DNA of 32,000 nt from Akkermansia muciniphila ATCC BAA-835 (GTDB taxonomy: Bacteria > Verrucomicrobiota > Verrucomicrobiia > Verrucomicrobiales > Akkermansiaceae): assembly GCF_000020225.1 (NCBI RefSeq), contig NC_010655.1:2400001-2432000 (forward strand), given 5' to 3'. A program made the position numbers and the translations under genes. The notes under the pieces are model-generated. The model ran no database searches, was not told where the DNA came from, and saw only the letters and a list, made by a program, of their open reading frames with translations. Below, one piece after another: positions 2,271 through 8,249 of the stretch (the stretch's first letter is position 1; each line of letters opens with the position of its first letter).

Positions 2271-3209
2271 TCATTTCCAGTCTACCCACAGTCTTTTCAA
2301 ATAATCCTCCCCGGAGAAATCCGGGGGCATGGGGTCATGAGTCAGGCGGAAACCGGGAACGGCACGGGCCACCATCCTGCGGAAGTCCTCGTGGCCCAGC
2401 TTGCGGCAGTTGCTGGTGCACAGCATCCAGCCGCCCGGTTCCAGGCATTCGCGAGCCAGCGCCACCAGCTCCCCGTAGTGGGATTCCACCCGGAACACCT
2501 TTCCGCGGTCATCCCGGGAAAACGTGGGAGGGTCCAGAATAATGCCGTGAAAGGTGCGGCCCTGCCTGGCGAACCGTTCCAGCCAGCGGCGCGCGTCCCC
2601 CTTGCAGAAATACTGGGCGGAGGGCTCAATGCCGTTCAGCATGAAATTTTCCCTGGCCCAGTCCAGGCACGGCTGCGCCAGATCCAGCGTGGTTGTCTGC
2701 GCTCCGCCCAGGGCCGCATAAACGGAAAAGGCTCCCGTATAGGCAAAAGTATTCAGCACCCTCATGCCCGGAGCGCTTTTTTCCCTCACCCGGCGGCGGT
2801 GGTCGCGCTGATCCAGAAAAATTCCCTGGGAATAACCGGCGGACATGTCTATTTTAAAACGCACTCCCTGCTCCAAGGCCGTAAATTGCAGGGGAAGGAG
2901 CGGCCCGGCGATCTGGACGGGCGCGTCTTTCTGGTTTTGTTCCAGTTTTTTGTGGAATACGGGCATGCCCGTATCCCGGAGTTCGCTTTCCAGGTCCGCA
3001 GGAATGGAACAGCCGCGTGTGGAGACGAGAAGACGATCCGCCATCTGATCCACAAAGACACCGGGGATTCCATCCCCCACCCCGTCCATGACCCGGAACA
3101 TATCCGTATCCGGCGGAATCAATTCCCTGTTGCGTTCCACGCAATAATGATAATTTCTCTCCACGGCAGAGCAAAGAGTAACGGATGAAGAACGTTCCCG
3201 CAATGTCAA
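2271..3209 (-). CDS. Class I SAM-dependent rRNA methyltransferase (RlmI/RlmK-like, COG1092/PF10672 type)
   Basis: 312-aa ORF. Motifs: FRVMDGVGDGIPGVFVDQMADRLLV, VLNTFAYTGAFSVYAALGGA (SAM pocket) and IILDPPTFS (catalytic DPPxF). The track start at 3209 is a TTG, so the true start is uncertain (somewhere in 3140-3209). Confidence 0.85.
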   Translation of the reverse strand: MTLRERSSSVTLCSAVERNYHYCVERNRELIPPDTDMFRVMDGVGDGIPGVFVDQMADRLLVSTRGCSIPADLESELRDTGMPVFHKKLEQNQKDAPVQIAGPLLPLQFTALEQGVRFKIDMSAGYSQGIFLDQRDHRRRVREKSAPGMRVLNTFAYTGAFSVYAALGGAQTTTLDLAQPCLDWARENFMLNGIEPSAQYFCKGDARRWLERFARQGRTFHGIILDPPTFSRDDRGKVFRVESHYGELVALARECLEPGGWMLCTSNCRKLGHEDFRRMVARAVPGFRLTHDPMPPDFSGEDYLKRLWVDWK

Positions 3210-3440
3210 AGAAGCAGGAGCCTCATTTCCTCCGGAGCAAGAGTTCCGCCAGGGAAAAACGGTTATTCGGACGGCCCTCCTTCATCAACAGAGACATTAA
3301 AAAAATCGCCTGCAAGGCTAGACCTTGCAGGCAACAACATTTTTTACTGCCGGAAAAGAGGTTCTCAAGCTCTTCGGCGGCGAACCATCAGGGCCGCCAG
3401 CCCCAGCAGACTCAGGGACGCCGTAGCAGGTTCCGGCACG
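2926..3440. repeat. Direct repeat, left-flank copy 1 (partner 4621-5125)
   Basis: By-eye alignment to 4621-5125 gives about 12 substitutions plus one 10-nt gap (caccggggat, present only in copy 1) over ~515 bp. The repeat covers the methyltransferase 5' end, the intergenic region with its terminator hairpin, and the last ~25 codons (PEP-CTERM tail) of the downstream gene. Confidence 0.9.
3299..3332 (-). terminator. Rho-independent terminator of PEP-CTERM gene A
   Basis: Perfect 10-bp stem gcctgcaagg/ccttgcaggc (3308-3317 / 3323-3332) with a 5-nt loop. On the minus strand it is followed by a 7-U run (A-run 3299-3305). It lies 33 nt downstream of the stop at 3365. Confidence 0.75.
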
Positions 3441-4138
3441 GCAAGACTCCTGGTTGCAGCAACAATTTCTTCAGGGGTCGCTACGCCCGGCGTAATGCCC
3501 ATGCCCGTTACATAGTCCGTGTTAACAAGCACAGTTTGATAGTTTTGGGATGTCGTCAAATCGGTGTAGGCAAAATTCCGACCATTATTGCATGGCACTC
3601 CATTACCCTTGTCATCAACTACTTTTGTTCCCTTTGCTCCGTCTGACTGGACAGCCGCCACGAGAGTAAGGGTGACGTAATCAGTCTCTTCCACGGTGTA
3701 GGAAAGATTCGCCAAACTCTCCAGAGAAAGGTAAGCAGAAGCACCAGGACTCCACACAGATCCCTGGTAGGCAAACTTAAGACCATCCGCCGTCAACATC
3801 AAGCCTATGGAACCGGAAGTTGAGTTTTCGCTTATTCTTAAATCAACCAGCAAAATGTTGAAAAAATCTGCTTCATGTATGGCGCTCCGCATAGCCGAGA
3901 GATTCAGGCTGAGCGTGATGGAGGAAGGATGACGCTCCCCACCGGTGGTAACTGCGGAAGAAATGGCACCTGCAGCAAACCCGTTGACGCTGTCATCTTC
4001 CGGAGAAGAGTAGGAGATATCCCCACCAGAAAAATTCTGCGACAGATCCGTAAAAAATGTAGTAGCGGCAACAGCACTGCCTTGAAGAAGCCCCCCCAAT
4101 AAGAGAGAGATAAAAGTTGAAAACTTCATATGCGACAT
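3365..4138 (-). CDS. PEP-CTERM sorting-domain protein A (secreted or cell-surface, no recognisable catalytic domain)
   Basis: 257-aa ORF with a signal peptide (MKFSTFISLLLGGLLQGSAVAA if started at the second ATG, 4129). The C-terminus VPEPATASLSLLGLAALMVRRRRA has the PEP motif, a TM helix and an Arg cluster, i.e. an exosortase sorting signal. The body is Ser/Thr/Gly/Asn-rich. Confidence 0.8.
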   Translation of the reverse strand: MSHMKFSTFISLLLGGLLQGSAVAATTFFTDLSQNFSGGDISYSSPEDDSVNGFAAGAISSAVTTGGERHPSSITLSLNLSAMRSAIHEADFFNILLVDLRISENSTSGSIGLMLTADGLKFAYQGSVWSPGASAYLSLESLANLSYTVEETDYVTLTLVAAVQSDGAKGTKVVDDKGNGVPCNNGRNFAYTDLTTSQNYQTVLVNTDYVTGMGITPGVATPEEIVAATRSLAVPEPATASLSLLGLAALMVRRRRA

Positions 4139-4141
4139 TGT

Positions 4142-4157
4142 GCGGATTAACTATCCG
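4142..4157. repeat. Inverted repeat, left arm of invertible segment A
   Basis: gcggattaactatccg is the exact reverse complement of 4370-4385. It has an internal dyad, CGGA-ttaacta-TCCG, around an asymmetric 7-bp core. Confidence 0.9.
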
Positions 4158-4369
4158 TTGGGAAAAAACAGGTATTGCACAATGTTCTCAAAAAATGATG
4201 AACAAATATCGTAATTAATTGAAAATCAAATTATATCTATTATATATCATGGAATTTGAAATAAACTCGTCCAAAAAACATTCACAGATATTTTCTACGA
4301 TTTGCCAATCTGTTTTTTCTGTCTGTGAATCTGCGTAAATTCCTTTTTTTTAAAAAAATAGTTTGACAG

Positions 4370-4385
4370 CGGATAGTTAATCCGC
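4370..4385. repeat. Inverted repeat, right arm of invertible segment A
   Basis: cggatagttaatccgc is the reverse complement of 4142-4157. A perfect TTGACA hexamer (4363-4368) lies just inside it. Confidence 0.9.
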
Positions 4386-4603
4386 TCACAAAAAAAGAGG
4401 CCGGATTTTTCATTCGGCTTCTCACAGGTCATTACACTGACCAACAACGATTTCCGCTTATTCAGCATACTGTTCGTTAAGAGCTTCCATGATTTCCCTG
4501 GAAGCTTCCGGAATGTTGGTGCCCGGTCCGAAGATGGCCACAGCTCCGTGTTCCTTCAGGAAGTCATAGTCCCGGACGGGAATAACGCTGCCACAGAAGA
4601 CCA
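4370..4603. repeat. Direct repeat, right-flank copy 1 (partner 6015-6250)
   Basis: Co-linear with 6015-6250: the IR arm, the terminator hairpin (degenerate here), then the 3' end of mutB. The coding part is near-identical, while the short stretch between the hairpin and the stop codon is more diverged and has small indels. Confidence 0.85.
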
Positions 4604-4612
4604 ATGATGTTC
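4458..4612 (-). pseudogene. Relic 3' fragment of methylmalonyl-CoA mutase large subunit (duplication remnant)
   Basis: The reverse strand translates to [47 protein letters not shown]. The intact mutB C-terminus at 6105-6250 reads [47 protein letters not shown]. There is no upstream coding continuation. The adjacent terminator copy (4397-4421) has two stem-disrupting substitutions. Confidence 0.85.
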
Positions 4613-4620
4613 AGAACGTT

Positions 4621-4894
4621 TCTTTCTGGTTTTGTTCCAGTTTTTTGTGGAATACGGGCATGCCCGTATCCCGGAGTTCGCTTTCCAGGTCCGCAGGAAT
4701 GGAACAGCCGCGCGTAGAGACGAGAAGACGATCCGCCATCTGATCCACAAAGATCCATCCCCCGCCCCGTCCATGACCCGGAACATACCCGTATCCGGCG
4801 GAATCAATTCCCTGTTGCGTTCCACGCAATGATGATCATTTCTCTCTACGGCAGAGCAAAGAGTAACGGATGAAGAACGTTCCCGCAATGTCAA
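4621..4894 (-). pseudogene. Relic 5' fragment of the RlmI/RlmK-like methyltransferase (frameshifted duplication remnant)
   Basis: The first ~45 codons match gene 2271-3209 (MTLRERSSSVTLCSAVERNDHHCVERNRELIPPDTGMFRVMDGAGDG vs ...NYHYCVERNRELIPPDTDMFRVMDGVGDG). A 10-nt deletion then shifts the frame. The fragment is truncated at 4621, where it abuts the mutB relic. Confidence 0.9.
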
Positions 4895-4983
4895 AGAAGC
4901 AGGAGCCTCATTTCCTCCGGAGCAAGAGTTCCGCCAGGGAAAAACGGTTATTCGGACGGCCCTCCTTCATCAACAGAGACATT

Positions 4984-5017
4984 AAAAAAATCGCCTGCAA
5001 GGCTAGACCTTGCAGGC
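4984..5017 (-). terminator. Rho-independent terminator of PEP-CTERM gene B (duplicate of 3299-3332)
   Basis: Same 10-bp stem (4993-5002 / 5008-5017), 5-nt loop and 7-U run (A-run 4984-4990), 33 nt downstream of the stop at 5050. Confidence 0.75.
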
Positions 5018-5049
5018 AACAACATTTTTTACTGCCGGAAAAGAGGTTC

Positions 5050-5754
5050 TCAAGCTCTTCGGCGGCGAGCCATCAGGGCCGTCAGCCCCAGCAGACTCAG
5101 GGACGCCGTGGCCGGTTCCGGAACGCTGGCTGTTTCTCCAGAAATAGCCAGAGCATTGAACGTAGGCGTGTGGGAGGAACCCGGAGTATTCACCGTCAGA
5201 ATAATTTCGCCATCTTCATTGGCAATAACGTCACTAATGGTGTACCCCGTGGGAGTCCGGGCCTGAATTGTCTGAGAGTTCGCACCTATGGAAGGAGCCG
5301 CGCTGTCGTAGGTATTGGAAGTCACCAGGGAATTCCAGGCACCGGCCCCCTCAAAAGGACACCCGGTAACAAGGGCAATCTGGTAGGAAGCACCAGCCAC
5401 CAGACCGGAAATAGTCAGGGAAAGAGAAGCTCCTTTGGGGCCGGAGATAAAGGTCTGCCAAGAGTTTCCGAAAGAGATCTGGTTTTCCATAAAAGAATCC
5501 AATCCCTGTGTATCAAAAGAAGTTCCGGAGGAAACCCAGTCCCCAGAAGCGGCGGAAGAAGTAGAACCCAGATTAGCGGAAGAGGCTGCCGTAGCCAGGG
5601 TTGCAACAAATCCGGAACCGGAATCGGTTACAGAAACAGTCTTGGCGGGAGTTTCCGGAAGCAAAGAACTGTTAAAATCAAATAATACAGTAGCAGCACT
5701 CGCGGAAAGCGCGGATACCACAGCCAACATGGAAATAGAGGCGATTCTTCTCAT
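5050..5754 (-). CDS. PEP-CTERM sorting-domain protein B (secreted or cell-surface, unrelated body to protein A)
   Basis: 234-aa ORF with an ATG start and a signal peptide (MRRIASISMLAVVSALSASAATV). The C-terminus VPEPATASLSLLGLTALMARRRRA matches protein A, but upstream of that tail I see no similarity to protein A. Confidence 0.8.
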   Translation of the reverse strand: MRRIASISMLAVVSALSASAATVLFDFNSSLLPETPAKTVSVTDSGSGFVATLATAASSANLGSTSSAASGDWVSSGTSFDTQGLDSFMENQISFGNSWQTFISGPKGASLSLTISGLVAGASYQIALVTGCPFEGAGAWNSLVTSNTYDSAAPSIGANSQTIQARTPTGYTISDVIANEDGEIILTVNTPGSSHTPTFNALAISGETASVPEPATASLSLLGLTALMARRRRA

Positions 5755-5791
5755 AAATAGCAGGTAAACAGCAACTGATTTCAGTCAGTAA

Positions 5792-5809
5792 CGGATTGAC
5801 TATCCGGTG
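5792..5809. repeat. Inverted repeat, left arm of invertible segment B
   Basis: cggattgactatccggtg is the exact reverse complement of 6013-6030. It differs from the A-site core by one base (ttGacta vs ttAacta). Confidence 0.9.
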
Positions 5810-6012
5810 TCAAATTATTTTTTAAAAAAAAGAGGGGGTTATGCGGACGGAACAGATGAAAAAACGGAGTATAGAAAAAATAATAAATAAAAATATCTCC
5901 AAAAATATTGGTTGCGACGTTTATTTTAAATAAATAATATGCTATTTATTATCAATAATTTGAAGTCGATAATAGCTGCTACTCCTGAATATTTTCAATG
6001 TCCGCTTTTTTT

Positions 6013-6030
6013 CACCGGATAGTCAATCCG
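6013..6030. repeat. Inverted repeat, right arm of invertible segment B
   Basis: caccggatagtcaatccg is the reverse complement of 5792-5809. It sits 5 nt from the mutB terminator. Confidence 0.9.
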
Positions 6031-6250
6031 CTCACAAAAAAGAGGCCGGATTTTTCATCCGGCCTCTCGCAACAGGTATTTACCTGATAAACAGGAAATT
6101 CCGTTTAGTCAGCGTACTGTTCGTTAAGAGCTTCCATGATTTCCCTGGAAGCTTCCGGAATGTTGGTGCCCGGGCCGAAGATGGCCACAGCTCCGTGTTC
6201 CTTCAGGAAGTCATAGTCCTGGGCGGGAATAACGCCGCCGCAGAAGACCA
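6015..6250. repeat. Direct repeat, right-flank copy 2 (partner 4370-4603)
   Basis: See 4370-4603. This copy holds the intact terminator and the functional mutB 3' end. Confidence 0.85.
6036..6066 (-). terminator. Rho-independent terminator of the mutA-mutB operon
   Basis: 9-bp stem gaggccgga/tccggcctc (6042-6050 / 6058-6066) with a 7-nt loop. On the minus strand it is followed by a U-run (A-run 6036-6041). It lies 39 nt downstream of the mutB stop. Confidence 0.75.
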
Positions 6251-8249
6251 GGATATCCGGACGGCCCTGCTTGGCAAGTTCCTCCACCAGGGCGGGAAGG
6301 AGAACCTTGTGGCCGGCGGCCAGAGAGCTCATGCCGATCATGTGCACGTCGTTTTCAATCGCCATTTTGGCAGTTTCCTCCGGCGTCTGGAAGAGCGGGC
6401 CCACGTCCACGTCAAAACCGAGGTCGGCATAGGCGGAGGAGACCACCTTGGCGCCGCGGTCATGGCCGTCCTGGCCCATTTTGGCGACAAGGATGCGGGG
6501 ACGACGCCCCGTGCGTTCGGCGAAGTCATCCGTCATCTTGCGGACTTCCTCCACCAGCGGATCTTGACCATAGGATTGAGCGTACACGCCGGTAATGAGT
6601 TTGATTGGTGCTTTATGACGCCCGAAGTGTTTTTCCAGGGCGGAGGAGATTTCACCCAGGGAGGCGCGGGCCTTGGCCGCCTTGATGGCAAGGTCAAGGA
6701 GATTGCCTTCCCCCGTGCGGGCGCATTCGGACAGGGCTTCCAGCGCGGCTTCGCACGCGGCGGAGTCCCGTTCCGCGCGCAGTTTCTGCAGGCGGGCGAT
6801 CTGGGCTTCCCGGACGGTGGTGTTGTCCACTTCCAGAATATCGATCTGGGCTTCCTGTTCCAGACGGTATTTGTTAACGCCGATGATGGGTTCCTTTCCG
6901 GAGTCAATGGCGGCCTGGCGGCGCGCTGCGGCTTCTTCAATGCGCATCTTGGGCAGCCCGGTTTCAATGGCCTTGGCCATGCCTCCGAGTTTTTCCACTT
7001 CCTGAAGGTGGGCCCAGCCCTTGCGAATGAGCTCATTGGTCAGGTATTCCACATAGTAGGAACCGCCCCACGGGTCGATTACCTTGCAGATGGTGGTTTC
7101 ATCCTGAAGATGAAGCTGGGTGTTGCGGGCGATGCGGGCGGAGAAGTCCGTCGGCAGGGCAATCGCTTCGTCCAGGGAGTTCGTGTGCAGGGACTGCGTA
7201 TGGCCGCAGGCAGCGGCTAGGGCCTCAATGCAGGTGCGGGTGACGTTGTTGAACGGGTCCTGTTCCGTGAGGGACCAGCCGGAAGTCTGGGAGTGCGTGC
7301 GCAAGGCCAGGGACTTCGGGTTCTTGGGATTGAACTGCTTGATGAGTTTGGCCCACAGCACGCGGGCGGCGCGCATTTTGGCCACTTCCATGAAGTAATT
7401 CTTGCCCTGGGCCCAGAAGAAGGAAAGACGCGGCGCGAAGGCGTCAATGTCAATGCCCGCCTTGATCCCGGTGCGGACATATTCTAGGCCGTCCGCAAGG
7501 GTGTAGGCCATTTCCAGGTCCGCCGTAGCGCCGGCCTCCTGCATGTGGTAGCCGGAGATGGAAATGGAGTTAAACTTGGGCATGTACTTGGAGGTGAACT
7601 CAAAGATGTCCGCAATAATCCTCATGGAGGGATCAGGCGGGTAAATGTAGGTGTTGCGCACCATGTATTCCTTGAGAATGTCATTCTGGATCGTGCCGGA
7701 GAGCTGGTCCAGCGTGCAGCCCTGTTCCTGGGCGGCGACGATGTAGAAGGCCAGCACGGGCAACACGGCGCCGTTCATGGTCATGGAAACGGACATTTTG
7801 TCCAGGGGAATGCCCTTGAAGAGGATTTCCATGTCCAGAATGGAGTCCACGGCCACGCCGGCCTTGCCCACGTCACCCACCACGCGGGGGTGATCGGAGT
7901 CATAGCCGCGGTGCGTCGCCAGGTCAAAGGCAATGGAAAGGCCCTTCTGGCCCGCCGCCAGGTTGCGGCGGTAGAAGGCATTGGATTCCTCAGCCGTGGA
8001 AAAGCCGGCGTACTGGCGCACCGTCCAGGGGCGCGCCACATACATGGTGGCATACGGTCCGCGGAGGTTGGGAGCCACACCGGCCGTAAAGTCCAGGTGC
8101 AGGCAGTCGTCGTACACGCTTTCCGAGTAGGTGGGCGGCACGGGAATTTGTTCATTGGTCATCCAGGTTTCCGTTTCGGAAGCCGGGGACGGGGCACCAG
8201 CCTTGATTTCAGGATAGGAGGCGGATGCAAAATCAGGAATATTGCTCAT
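6105..8249 (-). CDS. mutB: Methylmalonyl-CoA mutase large (alpha, catalytic) subunit
   Basis: 714 aa. It has the canonical MCM alpha motifs ([51 protein letters not shown]) and a C-terminal B12-binding domain with DxHxxG ([12 protein letters not shown]). Confidence 0.95.

What the first reader, a model, noticed from the sequence alone, without database searches (positions are those of the whole stretch)
4142..6030. Four near-identical recombination sites with dyad arms and an asymmetric 7-bp core, and no recombinase in the window
Each site reads CGGA-N7-TCCG, with an asymmetric centre (TTRACTA) that gives it polarity. This resembles tyrosine-recombinase core sites, although a serine invertase cannot be excluded. 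The four sites alternate in polarity (4142 forward, 4370 reverse, 5792 forward, 6013 reverse), so exchanges other than the two simple flips are geometrically possible. The 4370 x 5792 pair would invert gene B plus the relic fragments and place gene B next to the A core. Directly oriented pairs (4142 x 5792, or 4370 x 6013) would delete about 1.65 kb. None of the ORFs in this 32 kb looks like an invertase or integrase, so the enzyme must act in trans from elsewhere.
Basis: partly seen in the sequence, partly recalled or inferred. Interest (0 to 1): 0.6.

Follow-up and report, generated by a model that had tools for sequence, protein, structure and literature searches.

The report
Two linked Akkermansia promoter flip-switches
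The four sites are the ends of two neighbouring on/off DNA flip-switches of a kind already described in the gut bacterium Akkermansia muciniphila. The enzyme that flips them is almost certainly one of five related recombinases encoded elsewhere in the genome, and public gut assemblies show that these sites have also swapped partners with the bacterium's capsule switch 120 kb away.

Summary
CGGATTAACTATCCG lies at 4143-4157 and, inverted, at 4370-4384. CGGATTGACTATCCG lies at 5792-5806 and, inverted, at 6016-6030.

The sites bound two AT-rich segments of about 240 bp. Each sits upstream of a PEP-CTERM surface-protein gene, inside a 1.65-kb tandem duplication.

The genome is A. muciniphila ATCC BAA-835. 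The sites belong to its published inverton class (repeat motif CGGATT..AATCCG). I find about 46 such switches genome-wide, with 6-bp arms and a 3-bp centre that always matches within a pair.

In this assembly switch A points away from gene A (OFF) and switch B points at gene B (ON). Gut metagenome contigs carry B, an A-like switch and an allelic switch in both orientations.

The window has no recombinase. The whole genome has no serine or Piv-type enzyme, but it has five paralogous tyrosine recombinases. Three of these sit directly behind switches of the same family.

The predicted 4370 x 5792 inversion was not seen. However, A-left and B-left have recombined with the cps1 capsule switch, giving a cassette swap and a 120-kb inversion. 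Two contigs look like the 1.65-kb deletion product.

The kind is known; the partner-swapping is the new part. Earlier notes of this scan had already flagged the recombinases next to switches elsewhere in this genome.

The parts
4142..4157 (+). Site A-left: G+CGGATT-AAC-TATCCG, next to the start of gene A
   Evidence: In natural strains this is the breakpoint joined to the cps1 flank.
4158..4369 (+). Interior of switch A, 23-31% GC. It carries a T/A run plus TTGACA at 4363-4368, reading rightwards across site A-right. That is away from gene A and into a terminator, so the state is OFF.
   Evidence: A 90%-identical copy is found in both orientations in L120-L124.
4370..4385 (-). Site A-right: CGGATA-GTT-AATCCG+C, the reverse complement of A-left
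5792..5809 (+). Site B-left: CGGATT-GAC-TATCCG+GTG, 37 nt upstream of the gene B ATG
   Evidence: In L120, L122, L123 and L124 this is the breakpoint joined to the ftsK-side flank of the cps1 switch.
5807..6015 (-). Interior of switch B, 21-30% GC. TTGACA lies on the minus strand at 5813-5808 and reads across site B-left into gene B, so the state is ON. The interior is the reverse complement of the switch A layout.
   Evidence: It is found precisely inverted at 99% identity in L048, L049 and L113.
6013..6030 (-). Site B-right: CAC+CGGATA-GTC-AATCCG
3365..4138 (-). Gene A: a secreted PEP-CTERM protein of 257 aa. The more likely start is the ATG at 4129.
   Evidence: (PF07589)
5050..5754 (-). 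Gene B: a secreted PEP-CTERM protein of 234 aa. It resembles gene A only in the 25-aa sorting tail.
4391..4603 (-). Copy of the mutase terminator plus a relic of the 3' end of the methylmalonyl-CoA mutase gene. This is the left part of the duplication junction.
   Evidence: 4437-4603 matches 6084-6250 at 92%
4604..5049 (-). Relic of the first ~290 nt of the methyltransferase gene plus its upstream spacer, including the terminator of gene B at 4990-5020
   Evidence: 4695-5053 matches 3000-3368 at 97-98%; 'mid' matches methyltransferase nt 211-288
6036..6071 (-). Terminator hairpin of the intact mutase gene. It contains the chance look-alike CGGATTTTTCATCCG.

Best explanation
The four sites are the boundary repeats of two adjacent invertible promoters (invertons). 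They belong to the family already described in Akkermansia muciniphila.

Each switch carries an outward-reading TTGACA promoter element one base inside one repeat. Flipping the ~240-bp segment points that element either at a PEP-CTERM surface-protein gene (ON) or into a terminator (OFF). In this assembly A is OFF and B is ON.

The two units arose by a 1.65-kb tandem duplication of the methyltransferase-mutase spacer. That is why all four sites share the same variant arm.

Flipping is catalysed in trans by one or more of five paralogous tyrosine recombinases encoded elsewhere (gene starts at about 710, 1333, 2007, 2031 and 2437 kb). The normal reaction requires the two partner sites to have the same 3-bp centre. 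A has AAC and B has GAC, so A x B exchange should be rare.

Rare exchange between non-partner sites nevertheless happens on evolutionary time. It has moved the A switch, the relics and gene B into the cps1 capsule switch in some strains.

Shown here: the sites, the flips, the family, the absence of other recombinase types and the natural rearrangements. Inferred: which enzyme acts, where it cuts, and that the enzyme rather than host repair made the non-partner joints.
For: Identity of the genome: it is a single 2,664,102-bp contig. My ORF for wza falls at exactly 2,526,716-2,527,498, as in Table 1 of PMC13343947.

Known class: the motif CGGATT..AATCCG is quoted from Jiang et al. 2019 in PMC13343947. 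'Inverton group 138' has 32 members in this strain and is enriched near PEP-CTERM genes (PMC11892184).

Family in this genome: 46 pairs spaced 145-460 bp. The centre matches in 46 of 46 pairs, while the arms carry 29 mismatches in 552 positions. A TCAAAA-N7-TTGAC module lies just inside one repeat in most pairs.

Opposite states of A and B: the interiors align only as reverse complements while the flanks are co-linear.

Natural flips: the B interior is inverted at 99% identity in L048, L049 and L113. The gene-C allele is ON-like in 10 contigs and OFF-like in 5. The A-like switch is flipped in L122 relative to L120, L121, L123 and L124.

Enzyme: the genome has no PF00239 hit and no PF01548 hit, and 8 PF00589 hits. 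Five of these are paralogs at 38-52% identity with Arg, Lys, Arg, His and Tyr conserved. Family switches lie directly upstream of three of them, promoter facing the gene. The relative G033 has 32 exact sites, only one member of this recombinase family, and no serine recombinase.

Non-partner exchange: L120 and L123 read G000 2520023-2526121(+) | 2405797-2404142(-) | 2526286-2532381(+). L121 joins 2411916-2404142(-) to 2526286(+). All breakpoints lie inside the 15-bp sites.
Against: Orientation evidence therefore comes from assembled contigs of other strains, not from one population.

I could not verify that these two particular switches are listed in a published catalogue, because the supplementary tables are not held.

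None of the five recombinases is tied to these sites by more than family-level association. All 61 sampled genomes of the genus have the family, whether or not they are rich in this exact motif. The housekeeping XerC/D-like pair cannot be formally excluded.

Centres are shared among different switches: 20 classes for 46 pairs, which is not more diverse than chance. The centre alone therefore cannot be what keeps switches apart.

The natural exchanges joined sites with different centres, so a centre mismatch is not an absolute barrier.

No convincing -10 element was found at a fixed distance. The promoter layout remains a model.
Confidence: 0.8

Rival explanations
1. The joints between non-partner sites were made by host illegitimate or microhomology-mediated recombination at the short shared arms, not by the site-specific recombinase. 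This covers the cps1 swap, the 120-kb inversion and the gene A plus B-type switch chimera. Under this reading the four sites only ever undergo the two simple flips.
For: The shared sequence at the joints is only the 6-bp arm. The centres of the parents differ and one parent's centre is kept whole. A clear microhomology (GTCA) deletion that removed a switch exists at this same locus in L046-type contigs. No reciprocal product was found, meaning no cps1 switch interior next to the methyltransferase in any of 79 loci. All five rearranged contigs may descend from one or two events.
Against: At least three independent breakpoints fall inside 15-bp recombinase sites out of a 2.66-Mb genome: A-left with cps1-right, B-left with cps1-left, and the gene A chimera. 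After the move the A-like switch keeps matched AAC/GTT repeats and is found in both orientations. A joint on one side of the centre is what a single strand exchange followed by resolution of the junction would leave.
Confidence: 0.3
2. The switches are flipped by the housekeeping XerC/XerD-like pair (303 and 320 aa), not by the five-member family.
For: XerC/D-like genes are present in G000 and in G033. The sites are short palindromes with a small centre, loosely like dif.
Against: Three of the five paralogs sit immediately behind switches of this very family. The family is universal in the genus. Established knowledge says Xer pairs act at a single dif site under FtsK control and are not known to run dozens of promoter switches.
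Confidence: 0.05
3. The palindromes are operator sites for a DNA-binding regulator, or transcription terminators. Under this reading the segments do not invert.
For: Each site is a dyad, as operators are. One look-alike at 6047-6061 really is a terminator stem.
Against: The same segment occurs precisely inverted between unchanged flanks in independent assemblies. The two window copies are themselves in opposite orientation. A member of the family has been shown to flip by PCR and long reads (PMC13343947).
Confidence: 0.01
4. A serine invertase or a Piv/IS110-type invertase acts on the sites. The 3-bp centre would then hold the crossover dinucleotide.
For: A very short variable centre that must match between partners is also typical of serine-recombinase sites.
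Against: The 100%-complete single-contig genome has no PF00239 hit and no PF01548 hit. Both searches ring in control genomes. G030 and G033 are both rich in the motif and also lack serine recombinases.
Confidence: 0.03

Closest known systems
Akkermansia muciniphila invertons. Repeat motif CGGATT..AATCCG of Jiang et al. 2019 (Science 363:181, as quoted in PMC13343947); 'inverton group 138' of PMC11892184; the cps1 capsule inverton of PMC13343947.
   Same: Same organism, same repeat motif, same size range and same internal promoter-like motif. They share the association with PEP-CTERM genes, and both orientations are seen in sequence data.
   Different: Here two switches stand in tandem with near-identical sites that carry a shared variant arm (TATCCG). 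Their sites have exchanged with the cps1 switch in other strains. None of the papers I could read names the invertase or reports exchange between different invertons.
Bacteroides fragilis capsule and surface-protein promoter invertons, served globally by the serine invertase Mpi and locally by Tsr tyrosine invertases (from established knowledge)
   Same: Many promoter switches in one gut commensal share a repeat consensus. They are flipped in trans by a few enzymes and control surface structures.
   Different: The candidate enzymes here are tyrosine recombinases only, since the genome holds no serine recombinase. The repeat is a 15-bp palindrome with a 3-bp variable centre. Three of the candidate enzymes are themselves behind switches.
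E. coli fimS switch with FimB/FimE (from established knowledge; the off-target Fim inversions paper PMC6458436 was listed but not read)
   Same: A short invertible promoter segment flipped by paralogous tyrosine recombinases, controlling a surface structure.
   Different: fimS is a single switch with its enzymes encoded next door. Here there are about 46 switches with enzymes mostly far away.
Recombinase-mediated cassette exchange with heterospecific spacers (Cre/lox, Flp/FRT variants; from established knowledge)
   Same: Sites share binding arms but differ in a short central spacer. The spacer must match for efficient exchange, and two site pairs flanking a segment allow that segment to be swapped.
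   Different: The natural swap seen here joined sites with unlike centres. The crossover lies on one side of the centre, so it is not a clean spacer-matched exchange.

Membership tests
Akkermansia inverton class (Jiang 2019 motif / group 138) | Inverted repeats matching CGGATT..AATCCG | tested here: met
   All four sites match, with one A-to-T change in one arm. The same variant arm occurs in four other family members.
Akkermansia inverton class (Jiang 2019 motif / group 138) | Short intergenic invertible segment (about 150-460 bp) with an internal promoter motif next to a surface-protein gene | tested here: met
   The segments are 242 and 239 bp. A T/A run plus TTGACA lies one base inside a repeat. 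The neighbouring genes are PEP-CTERM genes.
Akkermansia inverton class (Jiang 2019 motif / group 138) | Both orientations present in sequence data | tested here: met
   Switch B is inverted at 99% identity in L048, L049 and L113. The A-like switch is flipped in L122. The allelic gene-C switch splits 10:5 between orientations. These are different strains, not one population.
Akkermansia inverton class (Jiang 2019 motif / group 138) | Listed in a published catalogue at these coordinates | not testable with these tools
   The supplementary tables of PMC11892184 and PMC10028968 are not held, and Jiang 2019 is not held.
Tyrosine-recombinase core site | Two inverted binding arms around a short asymmetric overlap that is identical in the two partner sites | tested here: met
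   The 6-bp arms are conserved. The centre is identical in 46 of 46 pairs, against 29 arm mismatches in 552 positions.
Tyrosine-recombinase core site | Cleavage 6-8 bp apart with a 3'-phosphotyrosine link | not testable with these tools
   This needs biochemistry.
Tyrosine-recombinase core site | A cognate tyrosine recombinase with an intact catalytic set | tested here: inconclusive
   Five paralogs keep Arg, Lys, Arg, His and Tyr, but all have Asp where XerA and XerD have the first His of HxxR. None has been shown to act on these sites.
Shufflon-type multiple inversion system | Several sites in alternating orientation that recombine in all pairwise combinations | tested here: not met
   No locus among the 79 shows the 4370 x 5792 inversion. 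Gene B and the relics are always co-linear. The A and B centres differ.
Serine-invertase (Hin/Gin/Mpi) switch | A serine recombinase encoded in the genome | tested here: not met
   There is no PF00239 hit in a complete genome, and the controls ring.

The most novel reading that the evidence does not exclude
The ~90 look-alike sites of the Akkermansia switch family form one recombination network. Besides flipping, the shared tyrosine recombinases would occasionally exchange between different switches. That would reassort promoters, surface-protein cassettes and even the capsule switch, and would create 100-kb inversions. The 3-bp centre would act as a leaky address label, and three of the five enzymes would themselves be phase-variable. 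This would be a natural, genome-wide cassette-exchange system that rewires which surface genes are switchable.
Probability: 0.3. Interest if true: 0.75.

Novelty: new member of a known kind. Interest (0 to 1): 0.45.

Why it matters
Akkermansia muciniphila is being developed as a probiotic, and its surface and capsule variation affects colonisation. The class of switch is published, but none of the papers I could read names the enzyme that flips it.

This locus offers three things:
- A short, testable list of five candidate recombinases. One, with its gene start at about 2007 kb, is the best conserved among the four near relatives that have a close counterpart (G035, G007, G030, G060). A fifth motif-rich relative, G033, has a single member of the family.
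- A simple rule: the 3-bp centres of the two partner sites always match.
- Natural strains in which the capsule switch has been replaced by the switch from this window. That shows switch sites can rewire the genome, not only toggle genes.

If the enzyme makes those joints, strain differences in capsule control and large inversions in this species would have a common cause.

Tried and rejected
- Published coordinates for these two switches could not be found. The supplements are not held and Jiang 2019 is not held.
- I tested whether the recombinase family tracks the exact motif across the genus. It does not discriminate: all 61 genomes have the family, but only 8 are rich in the exact motif.
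- I tested whether centres are kept unique between switches, as an 'address code'. They are not: 20 classes for 46 pairs, fewer than the ~25 expected by chance.
- I looked for the reciprocal product of the cps1 swap, meaning the cps1 switch interior next to the methyltransferase. It was absent from all 79 loci.
- I looked for a species representative with the swapped layout. None was found among the 61 genomes searched.
- The simple sigma-70 scan does not call the TTGACA elements, because no good -10 follows at 16-18 nt.
- The operator or terminator reading of the palindromes was rejected because of the precise inversions.
- The three one-mismatch sites at 512, 927 and 1874 kb are not rRNA-linked as I first guessed. 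They are other family switches that share the AAC centre.
Full report
**What is there**

The window holds exactly four matches to CGGATTRACTATCCG. They lie at 4143-4157 (+), 4370-4384 (-), 5792-5806 (+) and 6016-6030 (-), against 0.08 expected from shuffles.

Each pair brackets an AT-rich segment of 242 or 239 bp with 21-31% GC, in a region that is otherwise 45-65% GC. To the left of each segment lies a minus-strand gene: 3365-4138 (gene A) and 5050-5754 (gene B). Both products end in a PEP-CTERM sorting motif. They resemble each other only in that 25-residue tail.

**The duplication**

Three stretches are repeated in tandem:
- 3000-3368 recurs at 4695-5053 at 97-98% identity.
- 4437-4603 recurs at 6084-6250 at 92%.
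- The right-hand flank of each switch (CTCACAAAAAA plus a hairpin) is also shared.

The repeated pieces are the 5' end of the methyltransferase gene (2271-3209) and the 3' end of the methylmalonyl-CoA mutase gene (6105-8249). This is a tandem duplication of about 1.65 kb spanning the spacer between those two genes. A related species, G035, has an empty spacer there.

**Opposite states**

The two interiors align well only when one is reverse-complemented. A 40-nt arm at 4345-4384 is 90% complementary to 5792-5831. The outer flanks, by contrast, align directly.

In switch A, a T/A run and TTGACA (4363-4368) read rightwards across site A-right into a terminator copy, away from gene A. In switch B the same module (5813-5808, minus strand) reads across site B-left into gene B. 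On this model A is OFF and B is ON. The position of the -10 element and the transcription start are not established.

**It is a known kind**

The genome is a single 2,664,102-bp contig. An ORF I called independently for the capsule export gene falls at 2,526,716-2,527,498. These are exactly the coordinates of amuc_2077 in Table 1 of PMC13343947. The genome is therefore A. muciniphila ATCC BAA-835.

That paper quotes the repeat motif 'CGGATT..AATCCG' of Jiang et al. 2019. It shows by PCR and long reads that one member, the cps1 switch, flips. PMC11892184 groups 32 invertons of this strain as 'group 138'. It finds them enriched near PEP-CTERM genes and links no invertase to them.

**The family in this genome**

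I scanned for sites with at most two arm mismatches to CGGATT-NNN-AATCCG and paired neighbours 120-500 bp apart using the arms only. This gave 46 pairs whose 3-bp centres are exact reverse complements. The other 14 neighbour pairs are cross-pairings of adjacent switches, terminator look-alikes or weak sites.

Within the 46 pairs the arms carry 29 mismatches in 552 positions, and the centres carry none in 138. The centres differ between switches (20 classes), but no more than chance would give. Matching within a pair therefore looks required, while uniqueness is not enforced.

Most members carry TCAAAA-N7-TTGAC just inside one repeat.

The four window sites share the arm variant TATCCG, as expected from the duplication. 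Their centres differ: AAC in both A repeats and GAC in both B repeats. One base has therefore changed in both repeats of one switch since the duplication. That fits a position lying inside the exchanged region, though this is inference.

**Natural flips**

I used the methyltransferase as an anchor and fetched 79 related loci from gut metagenomes. I mapped the window's parts onto them. The locus is highly polymorphic.
- Six contigs, such as L046, have no switch. They carry a remnant left by a GTCA-microhomology deletion.
- Some contigs have a single unit with gene B, in which the B interior is 99% identical but precisely inverted between unchanged sites and flanks (L048, L049, L113).
- Some contigs have a single unit with a third gene ('C'). 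Its switch has the GAC centre and is ON-like in ten contigs and OFF-like in five.
- Some contigs have single units with gene A or a relative of it.

These are different strains, but they show inversion exactly at the sites.

**The enzyme**

Whole-genome profile searches find no serine recombinase and no IS110/Piv enzyme. Both searches ring in control genomes. There are eight tyrosine-recombinase hits, none in the window.
- Two are Xer-like.
- One 417-aa protein stands apart.
- Five are paralogs of 356-382 aa at 38-52% identity.

The five match only the general Phage_integrase model. They keep Arg, Lys, Arg, His and the Tyr nucleophile. All have Asp where XerA has the first His of HxxR.

Family switches lie directly upstream of three of them, each with the promoter module facing the gene: 710770-710930, 1332963-1333165 and 2436887-2437046. 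The last of these genes starts 5 kb beyond the window's end. The other two paralogs have no switch upstream.

Five near relatives rich in the exact motif were compared (G035, G007, G030, G060, G033). The switch-less paralog with its gene start at about 2007 kb is the best conserved, at 95%, 90% and 78% in G035, G007 and G030. G033 has 32 exact sites, no serine recombinase, and a single member of the family.

This supports a few trans-acting tyrosine invertases serving many switches. It does not say which one serves A and B.

**Exchanges other than the simple flips**

The predicted 4370 x 5792 inversion was not seen. Gene B and the relics are co-linear in every locus.

L051 and L114 carry gene A (98-99%) joined through an AAC site to the B interior (99%). 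In L051 the far repeat is B-type and carries an extra base. This hybrid, centre-mismatched switch is what a 4143 x 5792 deletion would leave. It is consistent with that event but not proof of it.

The clearest case involves a third switch. In L120, L122, L123 and L124 the block equal to window 4142-5797 lies, inverted, between G000 2520023-2526121 and 2526286-2532381. That block holds the A interior, site A-right, the relics and gene B. In these contigs it replaces the interior of the switch at 2526110-2526291.

That switch sits between ftsK and amuc_2077. It is the published cps1 capsule switch.

L121 carries only one of the two joints. It links 2411916-2404142 (reverse) to 2526286 onward (forward). 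This is the signature of a 120-kb inversion between A-left and cps1-right.

Both joints fall inside the 15-bp sites. Each keeps one parent's centre whole, with the crossover in an arm. At its new place the A-like switch still has matched AAC/GTT repeats. It faces cps1 in L122 and faces away in the others.

Five independent assemblies share these joints, two of them on contigs of 70-81 kb. The sites are far too short to cause misassembly.

I found no reciprocal product and no species representative with this layout. I found no paper reporting such exchange in Akkermansia.

**Reading**

The two simple flips are the routine reaction. The centre difference between A and B (AAC against GAC) should make A x B exchange rare.

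Exchange between non-partner sites is nevertheless recorded in the population. A joint on one side of the centre is what a single strand exchange by a tyrosine recombinase would leave, if the junction were then resolved without crossing unlike centres. Host microhomology repair is the main rival.

**Verdict**

The object is a new, doubled member of a known class. The candidate enzymes and the partner-swapping with the capsule switch are the parts worth following.

Earlier notes of this scan had independently flagged the recombinases next to switches at 710 and 1333 kb, and the cps1 switch. I re-derived each of these here.

Noticed in passing
L014:970-2040 (G000 2437064-2438134), 5 kb beyond the window's end: A tyrosine recombinase of the five-member family lies directly behind its own family switch (2436887-2437046), with the promoter module facing the gene. 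The same holds for the paralogs at 710 kb and 1333 kb. Three of the five candidate invertases may therefore be phase-variable themselves.
   Followed up: partly
alignment A3 (five paralogs), column of Asp292 in L014:970-2040: All five paralogs have Asp where XerA and XerD have the first His of the HxxR motif. The other catalytic residues are conserved.
   Followed up: partly
L120:6087-7761, L122, L123, L124 (metagenome contigs); G000 2526110-2526291: In these strains the interior of the published cps1 capsule switch is replaced by gene B, the relics and an A-like switch. The capsule operon would therefore be under a different invertible promoter, and gene B and ftsK stand back to back across a single site.
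   Followed up: partly
L046:6590-6860 and the five other switch-less contigs (L047, L050, L052, L056, L060): This allele has lost the switch and most of the PEP-CTERM gene. The switch deletion joins at a GTCA microhomology and keeps half of the right-hand site. What remains is a mini-ORF with a signal peptide and a sorting tail.
   Followed up: partly
L017:1960-2090 (related species G035, empty spacer): A run of about 13 tandem copies of the 9-bp unit TTCATGGAC sits where A. muciniphila has the PEP-CTERM cassettes.
   Followed up: no
G033 (a relative in the genus), L128:1450-2511: This genome has 32 exact CGGATT-NNN-AATCCG sites but only one member of the recombinase family, and that gene has no switch upstream. 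It would be a clean system for testing the enzyme.
   Followed up: partly
window 3365-4138 versus 5050-5754; L120-L124, L051, L053: PEP-CTERM gene bodies and switch interiors are reassorted among strains, with the boundary exactly at the gene-side repeat. Gene B occurs with GAC, TGA and TGG switches. Gene A occurs with A-type and B-type interiors.
   Followed up: partly
genome-wide family sites, e.g. G000 1947920, 1512390, 1237920: Many family sites have the arm variant CGAATT / AATTCG. This contains RAATTY, the motif reported as variably methylated in A. muciniphila (PMC11741434). Whether methylation touches switch sites was not examined.
   Followed up: no
window 6047-6061: CGGATTTTTCATCCG matches the loose CGGA-N7-TCCG pattern, but it is the stem of the mutase terminator and not a fifth site.
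   Followed up: yes
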